IMG/VR virus record: IMGVR_UViG_3300023184_000103
Location: 4,273-68,272 of that record
Source: a virus
Length of the DNA stretch: 64,000 nucleotides
Strand: one strand, 5' to 3'
Positions 33,805 through 39,770 of this stretch are shown piece after piece. The notes beneath the pieces were generated by a model. It ran no database searches. It was not told the origin of the DNA and saw nothing but the letters and a program-made list of their open reading frames with translations. Numbering within the stretch: position 1 is the first letter of the stretch; every line of letters starts with the position of its first letter. Position numbers and translations under genes: made by a program.

Positions 33805-34815
33805 ATGAATATTCCAGAGCCAGAGATTACCATAACTTCCTTGATTGACCAAGCCCATCAATCAAGGACTGAGAAGCCCCGAGCTCATATGGGGTGTAGC
33901 ACTTTGGGCCACCACTGCGAACGCTGGCTTTGGCTGTCATTCAGGTGGGCAGTGCAAGAAAAATTCCAAGGCAGGATCTTGCGACTTTTTAGGCGCGGCT
34001 TTAATGAAGAGGCCACCATCATTAACGACTTGAGGGCCATTGGCATGAGCGTGTCAGGAACCCAGCGCCGGGTTGACTTTGGCAGTCATGTATCCGGCAG
34101 CCTAGACGGTATCGGCAAGGGCGTACCCGGTGCGCCAAAGACTGAACACGTTTTGGAGTTCAAAACCCATAGCCTAAAGTCATTCAATGACCTAGAGAAG
34201 AATGGCGTGGCAAAGAGTAAACCCATGCACTTTACACAATGTCAGGTTTATATGCACGGCACCGAGTTGAAACGTGCTTTGTATGTGGCCATCTGCAAAG
34301 ACGATGACCGCATCTACACCGAGCGCCTGGAGTATGACCGTGATCATGCAGTGAAGGCAATTGAGAAAGGTCAGCGGCTGGCTCTGACTGACCGATTGCC
34401 ACCACCCATCAGCACTGACCCAACATGGTATGAATGCCGCCAATGTTCAGCGCATGATATGTGCCACGGTAGCAAGACCACCAAAGAGGTCAACTGTCGC
34501 ACGTGCGCTCACATTACGCCATTGTCAGATTCAACCTGGCACTGTGCCAAGTGGGATGCCATTGTGCCGTTGGATGCCCAGCTTACAGGCTGCGAGTCTC
34601 ACGTTATCCATCCTGACTTGGTGCCGTGGAAACGCATTGAAGGTCTTGACTGGGTAGCAATCTATGAGATCAACGGGCAAAGCATTGCCAACGGTGAGCC
34701 AGGTGAAGGGGTGTATGGCTCCAAAGAATTGTTGGCCAATGCTGCGGCCTGCGTGGACGCTGACCCGCAAGTGATGGCATTGCGGAAGGAATTTGACGGA
34801 AGGATAGTAGGATGA
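33805..34815 (+). CDS. Cas4-like PD-(D/E)xK exonuclease
   Basis: G.S..G..CER.LW; GSLDG; LEFKT; Q.Q.YM; C..C.....C cluster. Confidence 0.85.
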   Translation: MNIPEPEITITSLIDQAHQSRTEKPRAHMGCSTLGHHCERWLWLSFRWAVQEKFQGRILRLFRRGFNEEATIINDLRAIGMSVSGTQRRVDFGSHVSGSLDGIGKGVPGAPKTEHVLEFKTHSLKSFNDLEKNGVAKSKPMHFTQCQVYMHGTELKRALYVAICKDDDRIYTERLEYDRDHAVKAIEKGQRLALTDRLPPPISTDPTWYECRQCSAHDMCHGSKTTKEVNCRTCAHITPLSDSTWHCAKWDAIVPLDAQLTGCESHVIHPDLVPWKRIEGLDWVAIYEINGQSIANGEPGEGVYGSKELLANAAACVDADPQVMALRKEFDGRIVG

Positions 34816-36515
34816 AATATCTGTCCGTTTGCTCTGGCATTGAAGCCGCAACAGTTGCATGGCATCCGCTCGGTTGGACGCCAGTTGGGTTTGGGGAAAT
34901 TGAGAAGTTTCCATGCCAAGTGCTAGCGCATCATTACCCAGATGTGCCAAATTTTGGTGATATGACTAAATTTAAGGAGTGGTCAATTGAATCAGATGTC
35001 AATGTTCTCGTCGGAGGAACTCCTTGTCAATCATTCAGTGTCGCCGGACTCCGAAAGGGATTGGATGACCCTCGTGGCAACCTCATGCTTACATACCTTG
35101 CCATTGCTGCAAAGTATCGGCCCCAGTGGCTGGTTTGGGAGAACGTCCCCGGCGTCTTATCCTCTAACGGAGGACTCGACTTTGCCTCCCTCCTTCGAGG
35201 GATGGGGGAACTCGGGTATGGGTTCGCATACCGGGTTCTTGACGCTCAGTACTTCGGAGTGGCCCAGCGAAGGCGTCGCGTGTTTGTTGTCGGATATCTT
35301 GGAAACTGGCGACCTGCCGCAGCGGTTCTTTTTGAGCGCCATAGCCTGTGCGGGTATCCTGCGCCGAGCAGAAAAAAGAGGGAAAGTGTTGCCCCTAGCA
35401 TTGGAACAGGCGCTCCTGTCAGTGACTACGATGTCGCAGGAACCCTTGACAAAGGAGTGCCGGGACGAGGAATAGGACACAACGGCAACTACGATTCACA
35501 AGTTGTATCAGTCAGTCGTAACAACCACGAAGAGTGTGTAAGTTGGCCAGCTGAGATTAGCAGCACCTTAGACACAACCTTTGGCACAAAACAAGGATTA
35601 GAAAATCAGCATGTCAATGCGGGATGTCCCATGTTTGTGCCTGTGCAAACTTTTTCTACGCCAGCGATTGGTAGCATCAGGGAAGATTCATTGTCATCTT
35701 GCATCACTAAAAATACAGGCGGTGGTGGAGAAACTCAAAACCCTGCATTTGTATTGCAGCCAATTGCTCTTGCTGAGAACACCATAGGACGCAAGCCTGA
35801 GAATGGTGGCAACGGTGATGGTTTTACTGATGGCGGCCCGATGTACACGCTCAACGCAACTGGGGTGCATGGTGTGGCGCAGCCGATCCCAATTGACACA
35901 ATGAACATCAGAAGCAGACCATCTGATGATCGTAGAGGAAACCGTATTGGCCGTGGCTATGGTGAGGAAGGTGACCCAATGTTCACCATCACAAGAACAG
36001 ATCATCATGCGGTAGCGCAGCCGATTGCATTTGATGCTTACAACCAAACTACATCAGATATTGTTAGCGCATTACGTTGTGCCGCAGGTGGCGTATTTGA
36101 TAACACGATAGCGCAGGCAATGGCGTTCCCTTGGCAATTAGCACTTGACCCAATCGGAAATCCTGCGGATCTAAGCGGCACACTGGTTAAAAATCAAACG
36201 ATGGCGGTAGCGCAACCAATTGGTTGGTCAGAAGAATTCACCGCAAGTGTAGACATGGCTGGCACTCTCCAATATGGCGGTCAAGGTGGTCGCCATGATG
36301 GTGTGATGACCCAAACCATGCAAGTCCGCCGCCTCACCCCCACGGAATGTGAGCGCCTGCAGGGCTTCCCTGACGGCTACACCGACATCCAACACAAGGG
36401 CAAGGCAACACCTGATGGCCCTAGGTACAAGGCGTTAGGCAATAGCATGGCAGTGCCAGTGATGGCGTGGATCGGCAAAAGGATTCAACAGGTTGAGGCT
36501 ATCCATGCTTCGTGA
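34812..36515 (+). CDS. DNA cytosine-C5 methyltransferase with expanded variable region
   Basis: SVCSGI (I), GGTPCQSFS (IV), ENVPG (VI), QRRRRVF (VIII), RRLTPTECERLQGFPD, YKALGNS (X). Confidence 0.95.
   Translation: MKYLSVCSGIEAATVAWHPLGWTPVGFGEIEKFPCQVLAHHYPDVPNFGDMTKFKEWSIESDVNVLVGGTPCQSFSVAGLRKGLDDPRGNLMLTYLAIAAKYRPQWLVWENVPGVLSSNGGLDFASLLRGMGELGYGFAYRVLDAQYFGVAQRRRRVFVVGYLGNWRPAAAVLFERHSLCGYPAPSRKKRESVAPSIGTGAPVSDYDVAGTLDKGVPGRGIGHNGNYDSQVVSVSRNNHEECVSWPAEISSTLDTTFGTKQGLENQHVNAGCPMFVPVQTFSTPAIGSIREDSLSSCITKNTGGGGETQNPAFVLQPIALAENTIGRKPENGGNGDGFTDGGPMYTLNATGVHGVAQPIPIDTMNIRSRPSDDRRGNRIGRGYGEEGDPMFTITRTDHHAVAQPIAFDAYNQTTSDIVSALRCAAGGVFDNTIAQAMAFPWQLALDPIGNPADLSGTLVKNQTMAVAQPIGWSEEFTASVDMAGTLQYGGQGGRHDGVMTQTMQVRRLTPTECERLQGFPDGYTDIQHKGKATPDGPRYKALGNSMAVPVMAWIGKRIQQVEAIHAS
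34987..35475 (+). CDS. Nested +1-frame ORF, M.EcoHK31I beta-subunit-like
   Basis: AAGGAG (34974-34979) 7 nt before TTG 34987; LSDILE....P.RFFLS..AC.GILRRAE.RGK.LP..LE.AL. Confidence 0.7.
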   Translation: MNQMSMFSSEELLVNHSVSPDSERDWMTLVATSCLHTLPLLQSIGPSGWFGRTSPASYPLTEDSTLPPSFEGWGNSGMGSHTGFLTLSTSEWPSEGVACLLSDILETGDLPQRFFLSAIACAGILRRAEKRGKVLPLALEQALLSVTTMSQEPLTKECRDEE

Positions 36516-38919
36516 CTACCAAACCCGCACCATTGACCAGCTTTACGCTTGGTTTGAGGCAGGTAATCGGGGCAACCCATGCCTTGTCCTGCCTACAGGG
36601 TCAGGCAAATCTCACATCATTGCCGCCTTGTGCAAAGACGCGCTGCAAAGCTGGCCGGAGACGCGCATTCTGATGCTGACCCATGTCCGTGAACTGATTA
36701 GCCAGAACGCCGACAAGATGCGTTACCACTGGCCGAATGCACCAATGGGCATCTACTCTGCCGGGTTGCGCCAGAAGGAACTTGGGGAGCCAATTACGTT
36801 CGCTGGCATTCAATCAGTCAGAAAAAAATCCAAAGAAATTGGCCACGTTGACTTGGTTGTTATTGATGAATGCTTTGTTGCTGGAACCAAGATTTCAACA
36901 CCAAAAGGACAAATAGACATTGACAAAGTGAGGTGCGATGACTTAGTATTTAATACACGCGGAGTTGGCACGGTAGAGGCCGTTAGCTGCCGTAATGTTT
37001 TAGAAACTTTACTTGTGGAACTTGATGATGGAACAAAATTTGAATGTACCGGAAATCACCCAATTTTTACTGACTGTGGATGGCAAAAGGCAGAACAATT
37101 GGAGGTCGGAACGCATCTTTTCCGCATTGAAGATATGTCCAGCCTGTGGAGCAGAATTCAGACCTTGGATCAAAAAAGACGACAGCGGAAAAGTAATTTC
37201 AGCAATGTCGGAACCATTTTGGAAAAAGCAAAATCATTGCTCCGTGAAGTGTGCAAAGAAATCACACCCGACGGTGCTGAATGCAGAAGCACGCAAACGA
37301 ATGCGGGAAACTTTGAAAAGAATCAGGCATCAACCTATTCAACGTGGAGGAAACGGGCAATTGCTGCCTTTGCCACAGTTAGCACTGCTTCATGCGTTGG
37401 GGGAAGGATGGATAGCAGAATATGCAATCAAGACCAAAGCGGGACATTTGAACGGGACATATCCGAATGCGTACAAAGTGGACATTTGCTATCCGGAAAA
37501 GATGATTTGCATCGAATTGGATGGGGGGAGTCACGGCAGCGAAGAGAGGAAAATGCAGGACAGGAAAAAAGACCAATATCTTGCGGGCCTCGGGTGGCGC
37601 ATGTATCGCATATCAAACGAGAAAGCCCTGTACTTGTATTCAACCTTCAAGTCAGTGGACATCCTTCTTATTTCGCTAATGGAATAGCTGTACATAATTG
37701 TCATCTAGTCAGCCACAAAGACGAAGGCGGCTATCGGACACTTCTATCGGACATCTATCGGACAAACCCAAATGTGAGGGTGATAGGATTAACCGCTAGC
37801 CCCTACCGATTAGGACACGGTTACATCACCGACAAGCCAGCCATTTTTGACGCGCTGATTCAACCTACTAGCATTGAGGAATTGATTCACAAGGGGTTTC
37901 TATCAACCCTACGCTCTAAACTGACCCGTACCAAGCTGGAGGTGGACGGGGTGCATAAGCGTGGCGGGGAATACATTGAAGCTGAGTTACAGGCTGCGGT
38001 GGACACCATTGACAAGAACCGGCTGGTGGCCGCTGAGATAGTGCGCTTGGGGCATACCCGCAAGTCTTGGCTGGTGTTTTGCGCTGGGGTTGCCCATGCC
38101 CAGCATATTGCCGAGGCATTGAATAACGAGGGCATCACCACCGAATGCGTGACCGGAGATACACCATCCAATGAGCGTGACCGCATCTTGACCGACTTCA
38201 AGGCAGGGCGAATTACAGCATTAACCAATGCCAATGTGTTAACGACGGGTTTTGACGCGCCTGGGATTGATTTGATCGCCATGCTGCGCCCTACTATGTC
38301 ACCCGGCCTGTACGTACAAATGGCGGGTCGTGGCCTGCGGATCGCGCCCGGTAAAACTGACTGCCTGGTCCTAGACTTTGCAGGCGTAGTTGAACAGCAT
38401 GGCCCCATTACCGCCGTGAAGCCGCCACCAAAAAAGGGTGAGAAGCAGGGCGAAGCGCCAGTAAAGGTGTGCGACCATTGTCAGGAGATCTGCCATCTGA
38501 GCGTGAGGGTTTGCCCAGCTTGCGGTGAGGCATTCCCCGAGCCCGAGCGCCCAGCGCTACGCTTACACAATCATGACATCATGGGCGTGGAAGGCGTGGA
38601 CATGGAGGTCAGTAGCTGGACATGGCGCAAGCACATCAGCAGGGCTAGCGGCAAAGAAATGCTCAGTTGCACGTACTATGGCGGCCTATCAGATCTGCCA
38701 GTTACTGAGTACTTGGCGGTGACGCACGACGGGTATGCAGGGGAGAAGTCGCGCCGATTACTAACTGAAATCGCGCATCATGCCGAGGTCACGCTGGAAC
38801 ATGGCACCGCTGACCTGCACCAGATGGCGCAGCAAATGACTGAGGGCTTAAAACCATTATCAATAGAATTCAAAAAAGAAGGCAAGTTTTTCACTATACT
38901 AAAAAGGACATGGATATGA
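36505..38919 (+). CDS. SF2 DExH helicase (RadD/YejH-like) with intein and C-terminal Zn ribbon
   Basis: LRDYQ, PTGSGKS, IDE|intein|CH, GLTASP, LTTGFD, QMAGRGLR, CxxC..CxxC. Confidence 0.93.
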   Translation: MLRDYQTRTIDQLYAWFEAGNRGNPCLVLPTGSGKSHIIAALCKDALQSWPETRILMLTHVRELISQNADKMRYHWPNAPMGIYSAGLRQKELGEPITFAGIQSVRKKSKEIGHVDLVVIDECFVAGTKISTPKGQIDIDKVRCDDLVFNTRGVGTVEAVSCRNVLETLLVELDDGTKFECTGNHPIFTDCGWQKAEQLEVGTHLFRIEDMSSLWSRIQTLDQKRRQRKSNFSNVGTILEKAKSLLREVCKEITPDGAECRSTQTNAGNFEKNQASTYSTWRKRAIAAFATVSTASCVGGRMDSRICNQDQSGTFERDISECVQSGHLLSGKDDLHRIGWGESRQRREENAGQEKRPISCGPRVAHVSHIKRESPVLVFNLQVSGHPSYFANGIAVHNCHLVSHKDEGGYRTLLSDIYRTNPNVRVIGLTASPYRLGHGYITDKPAIFDALIQPTSIEELIHKGFLSTLRSKLTRTKLEVDGVHKRGGEYIEAELQAAVDTIDKNRLVAAEIVRLGHTRKSWLVFCAGVAHAQHIAEALNNEGITTECVTGDTPSNERDRILTDFKAGRITALTNANVLTTGFDAPGIDLIAMLRPTMSPGLYVQMAGRGLRIAPGKTDCLVLDFAGVVEQHGPITAVKPPPKKGEKQGEAPVKVCDHCQEICHLSVRVCPACGEAFPEPERPALRLHNHDIMGVEGVDMEVSSWTWRKHISRASGKEMLSCTYYGGLSDLPVTEYLAVTHDGYAGEKSRRLLTEIAHHAEVTLEHGTADLHQMAQQMTEGLKPLSIEFKKEGKFFTILKRTWI
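36871..37698 (+). mobile_element. Intein (276 aa) in helicase motif II, no in-frame endonuclease
   Basis: Block A CFVAGTKI, block B CTGNHPIF, block F VFNLQV..HPSYFANG, block G VHN followed by Cys+1; excision restores VIDECH. Confidence 0.95.
37013..37687 (+). CDS. Zn-finger + DUF559/Vsr-like endonuclease nested in the +1 frame of the intein
   Basis: CPACG..F...HCSVKC; YKVDICYPEKMICIELDGGSH....DRKKD..L...GWRMYRISN; start uncertain (37013, 37025 or 37028). Confidence 0.85.
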   Translation: MWNLMMEQNLNVPEITQFLLTVDGKRQNNWRSERIFSALKICPACGAEFRPWIKKDDSGKVISAMSEPFWKKQNHCSVKCAKKSHPTVLNAEARKRMRETLKRIRHQPIQRGGNGQLLPLPQLALLHALGEGWIAEYAIKTKAGHLNGTYPNAYKVDICYPEKMICIELDGGSHGSEERKMQDRKKDQYLAGLGWRMYRISNEKALYLYSTFKSVDILLISLME

Positions 38920-39107: not shown

Positions 39108-39397
39108 TGGCAACGATTGGCAAACAAATCCGCGCCATTTGCGCCATCATTAACGCTCAGGGTCCAATGACTTACCGACAGGTAGCTGAGCAGCTTCCAA
39201 TGATTCAACTAACTAATGTACACAAGTGCTTACAACGCGCCTGTATTTTTAGTATCGTAATATGTAATGAGAAGGTTTACAACTTGTCACCTGACTGGAA
39301 GAATACGATTGAACAGTATGAAAAGTTAAATCGTAAGCCAAAAATTGTCAAAAAGAAGAAAATTATTAATTCAGTATGGAGTCTAGCCAATGTCTGA
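39107..39397 (+). CDS. Possible winged-helix DNA-binding protein
   Basis: GGAGG RBS; GPMTYRQVAEQL...NVHKCL; ends INSVWSL. Confidence 0.5.
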   Translation: MATIGKQIRAICAIINAQGPMTYRQVAEQLPMIQLTNVHKCLQRACIFSIVICNEKVYNLSPDWKNTIEQYEKLNRKPKIVKKKKIINSVWSLANV

Positions 39398-39770
39398 TTC
39401 TTTACCAAGTGAGCACCTTGAACAGGTCAGATTAGTCTCATGGTTTCGGCGAAGTTACCCTGATGTTCGTATATTTGCGGTGCCAAATGGCGGTTATCGA
39501 GGTATTGGCCAAGGCATTTCTTTGAAGGCTGAAGGAGTTAGCTCTGGCGTTCCTGACCTTTTTATCCCTGCCTGGATATGCTGGATAGAAATGAAGCGCA
39601 GCACCGGCGGCGTGGTGTCACCGGTTCAAAAGGACTGGATAGCTTACCTCAAAGGTATTGGCCATCAAGTCATTGTTGGCTGGGGCTTTGAGGATGCCAA
39701 GCGTCAGGTTTTAGAACTGAACTCATCTTTAGGAACAAACTTACTTACTGTCACCCAGACCCAGGCTTGA
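39390..39770 (+). CDS. VRR-NUC nuclease
   Basis: SEH.EQ, IFAVPNGG.R, GVPDL, WIEMK, S..QK.W. Confidence 0.88.
   Translation: MSDSLPSEHLEQVRLVSWFRRSYPDVRIFAVPNGGYRGIGQGISLKAEGVSSGVPDLFIPAWICWIEMKRSTGGVVSPVQKDWIAYLKGIGHQVIVGWGFEDAKRQVLELNSSLGTNLLTVTQTQA

What the first reader, a model, noticed from the sequence alone, without database searches (positions are those of the whole stretch)
36871..37698. Intein whose endonuclease is overprinted in the +1 reading frame
Seen: a complete contiguous intein (CFVAGT, TGNH, VFNLQV, VHN|C) splits helicase motif II (IDE|CH). Its in-frame middle has no LAGLIDADG or HNH motif and reads like off-frame sequence. The +1 frame is open from 37013 to 37687, wholly inside the intein. 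It encodes a CxxC...CxxxC zinc finger and a DUF559/Vsr-like nuclease (YKVDICYPEKMICIELDGGSH...DRKKD...GWRMYRISN). Known: inteins normally carry the homing endonuclease in frame, and Vsr-like endonucleases are known from phage introns and free-standing between split-intein halves. Inference: a dual-coding mobile element in which frame 0 splices the host protein and frame +1 supplies the homing nuclease as a separate product, by internal initiation at 37013/37025/37028 (only a weak GGAA upstream) or by frameshifting. I do not know of this arrangement being characterised.
Basis: partly seen in the sequence, partly recalled or inferred. Interest (0 to 1): 0.93.

Follow-up and report, generated by a model that had tools for sequence, protein, structure and literature searches.

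The report
Helicase intein with overprinted homing endonuclease
A lake-phage helicase gene carries a self-splicing intein whose middle also encodes, one base out of step, a separate DNA-cutting "homing" enzyme; the double coding is real and kept by selection, but this kind of layout was already described for other inteins in 2025-26.

Summary
The window is a complete 68-kb phage record from a lake metagenome. Its SF2 helicase gene (36493-38919) is split in motif II (DE|CH) by an 828-nt class-1 intein (36871-37698).

- **Frame 0:** folds as a Hint mini-intein with a low-confidence linker of about 150 residues.
- **Frame +1:** an ORF at 37028-37687 encodes a zinc-finger plus EDxHD/Vsr-like (DUF559) nuclease.
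- **Selection:** in the middle, dN/dS is 0.12 in frame +1 and 1.70 in frame 0. Wobble periodicity switches frame at about 37066 and back at about 37620.
- **Census:** 76 of 80 viral relatives, 5 of 5 GenBank phage lineages checked and 27 of 66 genome-contig relatives have the nuclease +1 to an open host frame, never +2.
- **Start signal:** a conserved ATG, usually with GGAG 7 nt upstream (GGAA here), points to internal initiation.
- **Sequence integrity and mobility:** independent contigs show no indels. One contig fits an intein-less allele.

Novelty is limited. Out-of-frame intein endonucleases were reported in 2025-26 preprints, though not this family in what I could search. This scan also found the same layout before on other DNA.

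The parts
36493..38919 (+). SF2 (DExH) helicase gene, the host of the intein. It is 808 codons with the intein. The start is TTG 36493 or the ATG at 36505.
   Evidence: ORF. Pfam ResIII 3.6e-15 and Helicase_C 2.4e-17. The helicase of GenBank MW202867 is 80% identical over the N-extein and 60% over the C-extein, and it lacks the intein.
36871..37698 (+). Class-1 intein in frame 0 (276 aa), inserted between E and C of helicase motif II (DE|CH).
   Evidence: Translation. C1, T60, H63, H275 and N276 are invariant in 38 relatives. NCBIfam intein_Cterm scores above its cutoff. The homologue without it reads IDECHLV contiguously.
36871..37140 (+). N-terminal Hint splicing lobe (intein residues 1-90; blocks A and B, C1 and TGNH).
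   Evidence: AF2 pLDDT 91-97 for residues 1-90. Foldseek hits to inteins. dN/dS in frame 0 is 0.25.
37141..37590 (+). Frame-0 linker (about residues 91-240). It is kept open but is not conserved as protein. It is the shadow of the +1 gene.
   Evidence: pLDDT is mostly 29-64. Over 37138-37599, dN/dS is 1.70 in frame 0 and 0.12 in frame +1. None of 53 risk contexts forms a stop.
37591..37698 (+). C-terminal Hint lobe (residues 241-276; VFNLQV...GIAVHN), followed by the +1 Cys at 37699-37701.
   Evidence: pLDDT 94-96. Wobble periodicity returns to frame 0 at about 37620. Over 37600-37698, dN/dS is 0.36 in frame 0 and 1.01 in frame +1.
37028..37687 (+). Homing-endonuclease ORF in the +1 frame (219 aa plus TAG). 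A second ATG lies at 37025. The ORF lies wholly inside the intein.
   Evidence: ORF. The ATG is conserved in 11 of 11 close relatives, and an ATG sits 36 codons before the CxxC across the subfamily. AF2 mean pLDDT is 80.8.
37017..37020 (+). Weak Shine-Dalgarno-like GGAA, 7 nt before ATG 37028. Most relatives have GGAG or GAGG here, formed by the frame-0 V-E codons.
   Evidence: Alignment (GGAG or GAGG in 9 of 11; the window has GGAA and L010 has GGAT); 44 of 68 distinct loci have an ATG with an SD-like 4-mer, against a background of 11.2% of positions.
37136..37252 (+). Zinc-finger-like module of the nuclease (C37, C40 ... C71, C75).
   Evidence: The four Cys are nearly invariant (90% or more) in 51 sequences. 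pLDDT is about 90 for residues 31-80.
37346..37645 (+). EDxHD/Vsr-like nuclease core (residues about 107-206). Candidate catalytic residues are E163, D165, H169, D178 and K181 at 37514-37570.
   Evidence: These residues are invariant in 51 sequences. PF04480 scores above its cutoff. The PDB profile search gives 3hrl at 9.5e-7 and 3r3p at 0.03. VIA-align gives 3hrl Z 9.8, 3r3p Z 9.3 and Vsr 1cw0 Z 8.6.
36920..36949 (+). Promoter-like site (TTGACA, 18 nt, TAGTAT) about 80 nt upstream of the nuclease ATG. This is a lead only.
   Evidence: 10 of 12 matches. The region's count is not above shuffles (2 found, 1.4 +/- 1.3 expected). Each hexamer is kept in 8 of 11 relatives, but this cannot be separated from protein constraint.

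Best explanation
This is a mobile intein made of two overlapping genes.

**Frame 0.** Ribosomes translating the phage helicase read straight through. They make N-extein, a Hint N-lobe, a disordered linker of about 150 residues, a Hint C-lobe and C-extein. The Hint lobes splice themselves out and restore helicase motif II (DECH). Splicing is inferred, not shown.

**Frame +1.** Ribosomes starting internally at ATG 37028 or 37025 make a separate 219-220 aa protein. It has a zinc-finger module and an EDxHD/Vsr-like nuclease. This product is also inferred. The SD position is GGAG in most relatives and weakened to GGAA here.

**Homing.** The nuclease probably cuts intein-less helicase alleles near the DE|CH site during co-infection. 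Repair then copies the whole intein in.

**Selection.** It acts on three things at once. The Hint ends are constrained in frame 0. The nuclease is constrained in frame +1. Stops must be absent from frame 0 across the nuclease gene, which constrains the nuclease's wobble positions (no T before AAN, AGN or GAN codons).
For: - **Both products are recognisable.** The frame-0 model matches solved inteins: 2lwy with TM 0.86 to the target, and the gp41-1 intein 6qaz with 0.81 (41 hits at E <= 0.001). Its confident ends flank a low-confidence middle. The frame +1 model (pLDDT 80.8) matches the I-Bth0305I catalytic domain, DUF559 protein 3hrl and Vsr. DUF559 scores above Pfam's cutoff. E163, D165, H169, D178 and K181 are invariant in 51 sequences.
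- **Selection is frame-specific.** Seven relatives align without gaps over 1308 nt. The most variable codon position is frame-0 position 3 in the exteins and Hint ends. From about 37066 to 37620 it is frame-0 position 1, which is the +1 wobble. In the middle, dN/dS is 0.12 (+1), 1.70 (0) and 1.24 (+2).
- **Frame 0 is held open.** In the 82 loci chosen for having the host frame open (so the zero is by construction), 0 of 3660 risk contexts are preceded by a T-ending codon. Elsewhere the figure is 2311 of 9551. The evidence is each locus's chance expectation: the median P of no stop is 1.4e-6. The third frame has a median of 11.5 stops.
- **The layout is conserved.** The nuclease is +1 to the annotated helicase CDS in 5 of 5 GenBank phage lineages checked: Pseudomonas MR14, Corynebacterium phi673, Vibrio 104E43.1, CP-T1 and K391. 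The same holds in 76 of 80 viral contigs and 27 of 66 genome contigs. It is never +2.
- **Start signals.** An ATG at the 37028 position is present in 11 of 11 close relatives, although frame 0 would also allow GAC or AAC there. GGAG or GAGG lies 6-7 nt upstream in 9 of 11. +1 stops lie just upstream of this ATG in several relatives and never between it and the zinc finger. 67 of 68 distinct loci have an ATG before the first CxxC, and 44 of 68 have one with an SD-like 4-mer, against a background of 11.2%.
- **Mobility.** Synonymous divergence is about 1.6 in the exteins and 0.5-0.76 in the intein. MW202867 has an intein-less homologue. One contig in run X5 skips 982 nt with 154 letters between, which is exactly 828 nt fewer, and the same sample also holds intein pieces. 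Contigs of X16 and X17 match only 36841-37730 and then run on unlike the window.
Against: - No protein, RNA-end or activity data exist for either product. Contigs from RNA libraries do not show transcription.
- The window's own SD is weak: GGAA rather than GGAG. It does not score as an SD-like 4-mer in my count.
- 24 of 68 distinct loci lack an SD-like 4-mer at any candidate ATG.
- Initiation inside a translated ORF is expected to be inefficient.
- Pfam's intein models score below their cutoffs on frame 0.
- The profile match to I-Bth0305I itself is weak (E 0.03).
- The intein-less reading of the X5 contig rests on one contig of depth 3.6, and I could not see its 154 letters.
- The seven sequences used for selection are related, so the 21 pairs are not independent.
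Confidence: 0.85

Rival explanations
1. Programmed +1 ribosomal frameshifting. Ribosomes translating the helicase slip into the +1 frame between 37004 and about 37130. They make an N-extein / Hint-N / nuclease fusion rather than a free nuclease.
For: The +1 frame is open from 37004, upstream of the zinc finger. The window's SD is weak. 24 of 68 loci show no SD-like 4-mer at a candidate ATG.
Against: The ATG is kept in 11 of 11 close relatives where frame 0 does not require the T. An ATG sits exactly 36 codons before the CxxC across the subfamily. In relatives, +1 stops lie 3-5 codons upstream of that ATG (L014, L019). That leaves little room for a shift site. I saw no shared slippery motif in that alignment, though I made no formal search. 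In the distant lineages L001-L005 the ATG lies directly before the zinc finger, and four of the five (not L002) have GAGG 6-9 nt upstream.
Confidence: 0.07
2. The +1 ORF of this particular phage is a recently silenced relic. The intein persists as a mini-intein with a long linker, and the nuclease is no longer made.
For: The SD is weakened to GGAA in the window. No expression data exist.
Against: The ORF is intact and all invariant catalytic residues are present. In the clade that includes the window, dN/dS in frame +1 is 0.12. The intein is 2-3 times less diverged than its exteins at synonymous sites. Intein-plus and apparently intein-less alleles occur in one sample.
Confidence: 0.05
3. A sequencing or assembly artefact. 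The nuclease is really in frame with the intein, and two compensating indels in this record create the apparent frame change.
For: The frame switches fall near the domain borders (about 37130 and about 37620), as two indels would produce.
Against: An independent study's contig (X2) covers 36775-37900 with 5 mismatches and no gaps, and no insertions or deletions are listed in any of four runs. Six other metagenome contigs align to the window without a gap over 1308 nt. The same +1 offset occurs in 5 isolate-phage GenBank records and in 76 of 80 viral contigs. Frame 0 would not stay open by chance (P about 2.4e-7).
Confidence: 0.01

Closest known systems
Non-canonical actinobacteriophage inteins with the endonuclease outside the intein frame (Gosselin, Arsenault, Gogarten; bioRxiv 10.1101/2025.01.02.630785; I read the abstract and passages)
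   Same: The intein frame is open and splicing-competent. The endonuclease is a separate ORF overlapping the linker. The in-frame middle gives no recognisable structure. The authors propose invasion of a mini-intein by a free-standing endonuclease gene.
   Different: Their cases are antisense LAGLIDADG, antisense VSR-like and a frame-3 endonuclease VII-like ORF. They sit in DNA polymerase, minor capsid, terminase and thymidylate synthase of actinophages. This one is a sense-strand +1 EDxHD/Vsr-like ORF in an SF2 helicase, mostly in phages of other hosts.
Cyanobacterial dnaX intein with an out-of-frame LAGLIDADG ORF (Phillips, DeSimone, Gogarten; bioRxiv 10.64898/2026.09.14.751524; I read the abstract and sections 11 and 17)
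   Same: It has a sense-strand out-of-frame endonuclease ORF over a disordered intein middle. dN/dS is low in the endonuclease frame and high in the intein frame. There are SD motifs before the start, and intein-plus and intein-less alleles coexist.
   Different: The nuclease family differs (LAGLIDADG, not EDxHD) and the offset is +2. The host gene is cellular (dnaX) rather than a phage helicase.
Fractured genes: split inteins with a free-standing Vsr-like endonuclease gene between the halves (Dassa et al. 2009, PMC2677866; passages)
   Same: The endonuclease family is the same and the hosts are phage DNA-metabolism genes, including helicases. The endonuclease ORF overlaps the downstream intein part by 6-69 bp. 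The frame-0 model here resembles the gp41-1 intein from that work (6qaz). Relative L069 has exactly this fractured layout.
   Different: In the window the host frame has no stop and no restart. The intein is contiguous (cis-splicing) and the endonuclease gene is wholly overprinted. That paper states that Vsr-like endonucleases were not known inside inteins.
[quoted passage not shown] 2011, PMC3239194; passages)
   Same: It has a Vsr-like catalytic core with the conserved E, D, H and D residues. An N-terminal DNA-binding region precedes a C-terminal nuclease. It is phage-borne and associated with homing.
   Different: I-Bth0305I is encoded in a group I intron of recA and has NUMOD/helix-turn-helix motifs at its N end. 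This protein has a four-Cys zinc-finger-like module and lies inside an intein in another frame. Sequence similarity to 3r3p is weak (E 0.03).
ShiLan insertion: a hidden out-of-frame HNH endonuclease in a phage methylase (Arsenault et al. 2025, PMC11855218; abstract and section 4.3)
   Same: A homing-endonuclease ORF is hidden in another frame of an insertion that stays open in the host frame.
   Different: It has no splicing domain, its nuclease is HNH, it uses a GTG start without an RBS, and the insertion is thought to be tolerated as a loop.

Membership tests
Intein (class 1, Hint fold) | N-terminal Cys/Ser, block B TxxH, and a C-terminal His-Asn followed by Cys/Ser/Thr | tested here: met
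   C1, T60/H63 (TGNH), H275-N276 and C+1 are present. All are invariant in 38 relatives.
Intein (class 1, Hint fold) | Hint fold | tested here: met
   The AF2 ends have pLDDT 91-97. Foldseek gives 41 PDB hits at E <= 0.001, all of the listed ones inteins, bacterial intein-like domains or hedgehog Hint domains; the top hits are 2lwy and the gp41-1 intein 6qaz.
Intein (class 1, Hint fold) | Curated profile score above threshold | tested here: inconclusive
   TIGR01443 intein_Cterm scores 21.2 against a cutoff of 15.6. TIGR01445 intein_Nterm scores 20.5 against 24.5. Pfam Intein_splicing scores 31 against 35.8.
Intein (class 1, Hint fold) | In-frame insertion at a conserved host site, absent from homologues | tested here: met
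   It splits motif II as DE|CH. The MW202867 helicase reads IDECHLV without it. A contig in run X5 is 828 nt shorter at this place.
Intein (class 1, Hint fold) | Protein splicing activity | not testable with these tools
   It needs an expression assay.
EDxHD / Vsr-like homing endonucleases (DUF559, PF04480) | Profile match above the curated threshold | tested here: met
   PF04480 scores 29.3 bits against a cutoff of 20.6. The profile built from 51 sequences hits DUF559 structure 3hrl at E 9.5e-7 and I-Bth0305I 3r3p at E 0.03.
EDxHD / Vsr-like homing endonucleases (DUF559, PF04480) | Conserved E, D, H and D catalytic residues | tested here: met
   E163, D165, H169 and D178 (plus K181) are invariant in 51 sequences. 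I equated them with the family motif by pattern, not by structural superposition.
EDxHD / Vsr-like homing endonucleases (DUF559, PF04480) | Vsr-like nuclease fold | tested here: met
   VIA-align gives 3hrl Z 9.8 (rmsd 2.2, 81 aligned), 3r3p Z 9.3 (3.4, 88), 1cw0 Z 8.6 (2.8, 94) and 1vsr Z 8.2 (2.8, 91). 3r3p is the top Foldseek hit.
EDxHD / Vsr-like homing endonucleases (DUF559, PF04480) | N-terminal NUMOD/helix-turn-helix DNA-binding region, as in I-Bth0305I | not tested
   The N-terminal half has four nearly invariant Cys. I ran no NUMOD search.
EDxHD / Vsr-like homing endonucleases (DUF559, PF04480) | Site-specific cleavage of the element-free allele | not testable with these tools
   It needs an in vitro cleavage assay.
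Non-canonical inteins with an out-of-frame endonuclease ORF | The endonuclease ORF lies inside the intein in another frame while the host frame stays open | tested here: met
   ORF 37028-37687 lies inside 36871-37698, and frame 0 is open. The same holds in 76 of 80 viral relatives.
Non-canonical inteins with an out-of-frame endonuclease ORF | Purifying selection on the endonuclease frame, not on the overlapped intein frame | tested here: met
   dN/dS is 0.12 against 1.70, and the wobble periodicity switches frame.
Fractured gene / split intein (Dassa et al. 2009) | A stop after the N-intein part and a new start for the C-intein part | tested here: not met
   Frame 0 is uninterrupted in the window. 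Relative L069 does have this layout.

The most novel reading that the evidence does not exclude
The +1-overprinted layout may be the stable, dominant architecture of a very large intein family in phage helicases, not a short-lived intermediate.

- Its nuclease start signals are built from codons of the splicing domain itself: V-E gives GGAG and [D/N]-G gives ATG. The nuclease therefore cannot easily be lost or moved without touching the intein.
- The same nuclease clade also shows the rarer states. Two loci have it free-standing next to an intein-less helicase gene (L061, L078). One is fractured (L069). One has it fused in frame (L082).
- One family would thus hold every step of the proposed route by which inteins acquire endonuclease domains, and the route could be tested directly by phylogeny and experiment.
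Probability: 0.45. Interest if true: 0.7.

Novelty: new member of a known kind. Interest (0 to 1): 0.5.

Why it matters
**Annotation.** Gene callers report only the long helicase ORF. In GenBank the five phage records I opened annotate no nuclease gene here. An active mobile nuclease therefore goes unseen in many phage genomes.

**Biology.** The case shows three simultaneous constraints on one stretch of DNA, and both frames can be read off the substitution pattern.

**Evolution.** Free-standing, fractured, overprinted and in-frame forms of one nuclease clade give concrete material for the 'mini-intein invaded by a free-standing endonuclease gene' model (Dassa et al. 2009; Gosselin et al. 2025).

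**Practical use.** The Hint part is a natural mini-intein that tolerates a linker of about 150 residues. The nuclease is a candidate EDxHD enzyme with a target in a conserved helicase motif.

Tried and rejected
- **TTG 37127 as the start.** It lies just before the zinc finger, and a GGAGG sits 21 nt upstream with a possible small hairpin between them. I rejected it because it is TCG in 5 of 11 relatives.
- **TTG 37013, the ORF-list start.** The +1 frame has a stop at or after that position in relatives L014 and L019, while the ATG at 37028 is kept.
- **An internal promoter at 36920-36949.** The site matches 10 of 12, but the number of sites in the region is not above shuffles. Its conservation cannot be separated from the protein constraint. 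I keep it as a lead only.
- **Boundary finding by simple patterns.**
  - 55 of 82 loci gave full intein boundaries of 258-356 aa. One of these, L003, had its C end set too early.
  - In the other 27 the pattern missed the N end or stopped early.
  - I therefore make no claim about exact intein lengths for those loci.
- **RNA libraries X16 and X17.** They hold the intein as contigs, but this does not show transcription, and contigs cannot show strand or ends. I draw no conclusion from parts without cover in any run.
- **Weaker genome-contig relatives.** The 39 that matched only the nuclease core (many Brevundimonas, Rhizobium and Hyphomonas) have an ORF of their own. I take them as ordinary stand-alone DUF559 proteins, not as this element. 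L119 counted as '+1' has all three frames long and no junction motif, so the firm count may be 26 rather than 27.
- **Literature searches for this exact family.** I ran the searches. They found the general layout, but no paper that describes a sense +1 EDxHD ORF in a helicase intein. The library does not hold most subscription journals, and supplements were closed.


Full report
**What is there.**
The window is 64 kb of a 68,272-bp virus record that CheckV rates complete. Its DNA is held by lake and freshwater metagenome runs. An 808-codon ORF (36493-38919, + strand) carries ResIII and Helicase_C domains. It follows a C-5 cytosine methyltransferase gene, and a weak VRR-NUC-like ORF lies downstream.

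Between the E and C of helicase motif II lies an 828-nt insert, 36871-37698. It begins CFVAGT, contains TGNH, and ends VFNLQV...GIAVHN, followed by Cys.

A related helicase in GenBank MW202867 is 80% identical over the N-extein and 60% over the C-extein. It reads ...IDECHLV... without the insert.

**Two frames, two proteins.**
In frame 0 the insert scores as an intein only in part. TIGR01443 is above its cutoff, while Pfam Intein_splicing, PT-HINT and TIGR01445 are below theirs. A model built from 38 relatives is clearer:
- Residues 1-90 and 241-276 have pLDDT 91-97.
- Residues about 100-240 are mostly 29-64.
- The model matches solved inteins. There are 41 hits at E <= 0.001, led by a bacterial intein-like domain and the gp41-1 intein.

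In frame +1 an ORF lies wholly inside the insert:
- It hits DUF559 (PF04480) above the cutoff.
- A profile of 51 relatives hits the DUF559 structure 3hrl (E 9.5e-7) and, weakly, the I-Bth0305I catalytic domain (E 0.03).
- Its model has mean pLDDT 80.8, and only residues 1-16 fall below 50.
- The model aligns to 3hrl (Z 9.8), I-Bth0305I (Z 9.3) and Vsr (Z 8.6 and 8.2).
- E163, D165, H169, D178 and K181 are invariant, and four Cys in the N-terminal half are nearly so.

I therefore file the +1 protein with the EDxHD/Vsr-like homing endonucleases of Taylor et al. 2011 (PMC3239194, passages).

**Not an artefact.**
- An independent study's contig covers 36775-37900 with five mismatches and no gap. 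No insertion or deletion is listed for any of four runs.
- Six other viral contigs align to the window without a gap over 1308 nt.

**Selection.**
In those seven sequences the most variable codon position is frame-0 position 3 in both exteins and in the Hint ends. From about 37066 to about 37620 it is frame-0 position 1, which is the wobble position of frame +1.

Nei-Gojobori estimates over 21 pairs:

| Region | Frame | dN/dS |
|---|---|---|
| Exteins | 0 | 0.09-0.10 |
| Hint-N | 0 | 0.25 |
| Middle, 37138-37600 | +1 | 0.12 |
| Middle | 0 | 1.70 |
| Middle | +2 | 1.24 |
| Last ~30 codons of the +1 ORF | +1 | 1.01 |
| Same stretch | 0 | 0.36 |

In the last stretch only the Hint C-lobe is constrained. 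The pairs are not independent.

Frame 0 is nevertheless held open:
- In the window none of 53 +1 codons beginning AA, AG or GA is preceded by a T-ending codon. The rate elsewhere is 33 of 132 (P about 2.4e-7).
- The third frame has 10 stops in the same stretch.
- In the 82 loci chosen for having the host frame open (so the zero is by construction) the figures are 0 of 3660 against 2311 of 9551. The evidence is the chance expectation for each locus: median P 1.4e-6.

**How widespread.**
- **GenBank phages.** A tblastn of the +1 protein hit 42 records, and 40 of the matches lie under a long annotated CDS. I opened one record from each of five groups: Pseudomonas MR14, Corynebacterium phi673, Vibrio 104E43.1, CP-T1 and K391. 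In all five the match is +1 to the annotated CDS, which reads through.
- **IMG/VR.** The scan found 270 relatives and kept the best 80. In 76 the nuclease is +1 to a host frame of 409-1504 codons that is open across it. In none is it +2.
- **The four exceptions.**
  - L061 and L078 have the nuclease as a free-standing gene directly upstream of an intein-less helicase gene.
  - L069 is a fractured gene: the N part ends in a stop, the nuclease is +1, and the C part resumes in the same frame as the N part.
  - L082 has the nuclease core in frame inside an intein of a different helicase.
- **Insertion sites.** Most are DE|CH, but other C-junctions occur, such as HN|SS and HN|CQ.
- **Species-representative genomes.** 27 of 66 relatives have the +1 layout. 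They lie in contigs labelled with many phyla, mostly MAGs. The other 39 are weak core-only matches with an ORF of their own.

**How the nuclease is probably made.**
- In 11 close relatives a +1 ATG at the position of 37028 is always present. It is formed by frame-0 [D/N]-G codons that always use T where C would also serve.
- GGAG or GAGG lies 6-7 nt upstream in 9 of the 11, formed by frame-0 V-E codons. The window has GGAA.
- +1 stops occur just upstream of this ATG, and never between it and the zinc finger.
- Across 68 distinct loci, 67 have an ATG before the first CxxC. 44 have one with an SD-like 4-mer, against 11.2% of background positions. 31 of these sit exactly 36 codons before the CxxC.
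- In the distant lineages the ATG lies right before the zinc finger, and four of the five (not L002) have GAGG 6-9 nt upstream.

Internal initiation is therefore the best-supported route. Frameshifting is not excluded. A promoter-like site at 36920-36949 is only a lead.

**Mobility.**
- Synonymous divergence is about 1.6 in the exteins and 0.5-0.76 in the intein.
- One contig of run X5 skips 36810-37791 with 154 letters between. That is exactly the 828 nt of the intein fewer, and other contigs of that sample hold intein pieces.
- Contigs of X16 and X17, which come from one study, match only 36841-37730 at 90-95% and then run on unlike the window on both sides.
- This fits an intein that moves between diverged helicase alleles. 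The X5 inference rests on one low-depth contig.

**What is known.**
It has been described for other inteins.
- Gosselin, Arsenault and Gogarten report antisense LAGLIDADG, antisense VSR-like and frame-3 endonuclease VII-like ORFs. These sit in inteins of four actinophage proteins, none of them a helicase. They cite Gorbalenya 1998 for antisense cases, which I did not read.
- Phillips, DeSimone and Gogarten describe a +2 LAGLIDADG ORF in the dnaX intein, with the same selection pattern.
- Dassa et al. 2009 found Vsr-like genes between split-intein halves.
- My six searches found no paper on a sense +1 EDxHD ORF in helicase inteins. Supplements were closed.
- This scan has noted the same layout before on other DNA. 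One search lists 39 findings in at least 32 genomes, and the eight shown agree with my reading. I reached that reading before looking at them.

**Verdict.**
This is a real, selected dual-coding intein and a new member of a recently described kind.
- **Shown:** both folds, the frame-specific selection, the conservation of the layout, and the integrity of the sequence.
- **Inferred:** splicing, the +1 product and its start, and cleavage and homing.

Noticed in passing
window 34812-36515 (+): The C-5 cytosine DNA methyltransferase just upstream of the helicase is long (567 aa). Pfam DNA_methylase matches it in two stretches, the best covering only residues 1-164. The middle holds three similar ...VAQPI... 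segments, which suggests an enlarged or repeated target-recognition region.
   Followed up: partly
L061:2902-3543 and L078:2797-3426: Relatives of the nuclease are free-standing genes here. Their 3' ends overlap the start of an intein-less helicase gene, like phage free-standing homing endonuclease genes placed beside their likely target.
   Followed up: partly
L069:2004-4490: This is a fractured version of the same element. N-extein plus Hint-N ends in a stop, the nuclease ORF is +1 and overlaps both parts, and Hint-C plus C-extein resumes in the same frame as the N part. The nuclease N end still carries the ME..L.A..T...DG shadow of Hint block B.
   Followed up: partly
L082:1792-4293: Here the nuclease core, without the zinc-finger half, is fused in frame between Hint lobes. 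The host is a different helicase, with junctions DE|C and HN|CQD. This is the only in-frame case among the 80 viral loci.
   Followed up: partly
window 36901-36966: Synonymous diversity among close relatives dips here (frame-0 position 3 at about 0.12-0.15, against 0.25-0.4 in the rest of Hint-N). The dip falls over the promoter-like TTGACA/TAGTAT site, which hints at an extra constraint at the nucleotide level.
   Followed up: partly
window 39390-39770 (+): A small ORF has a weak VRR-NUC match (21.8 bits, below the 23.8 cutoff). Together with the methyltransferase and helicase it looks like a typical phage replication and recombination module.
   Followed up: no
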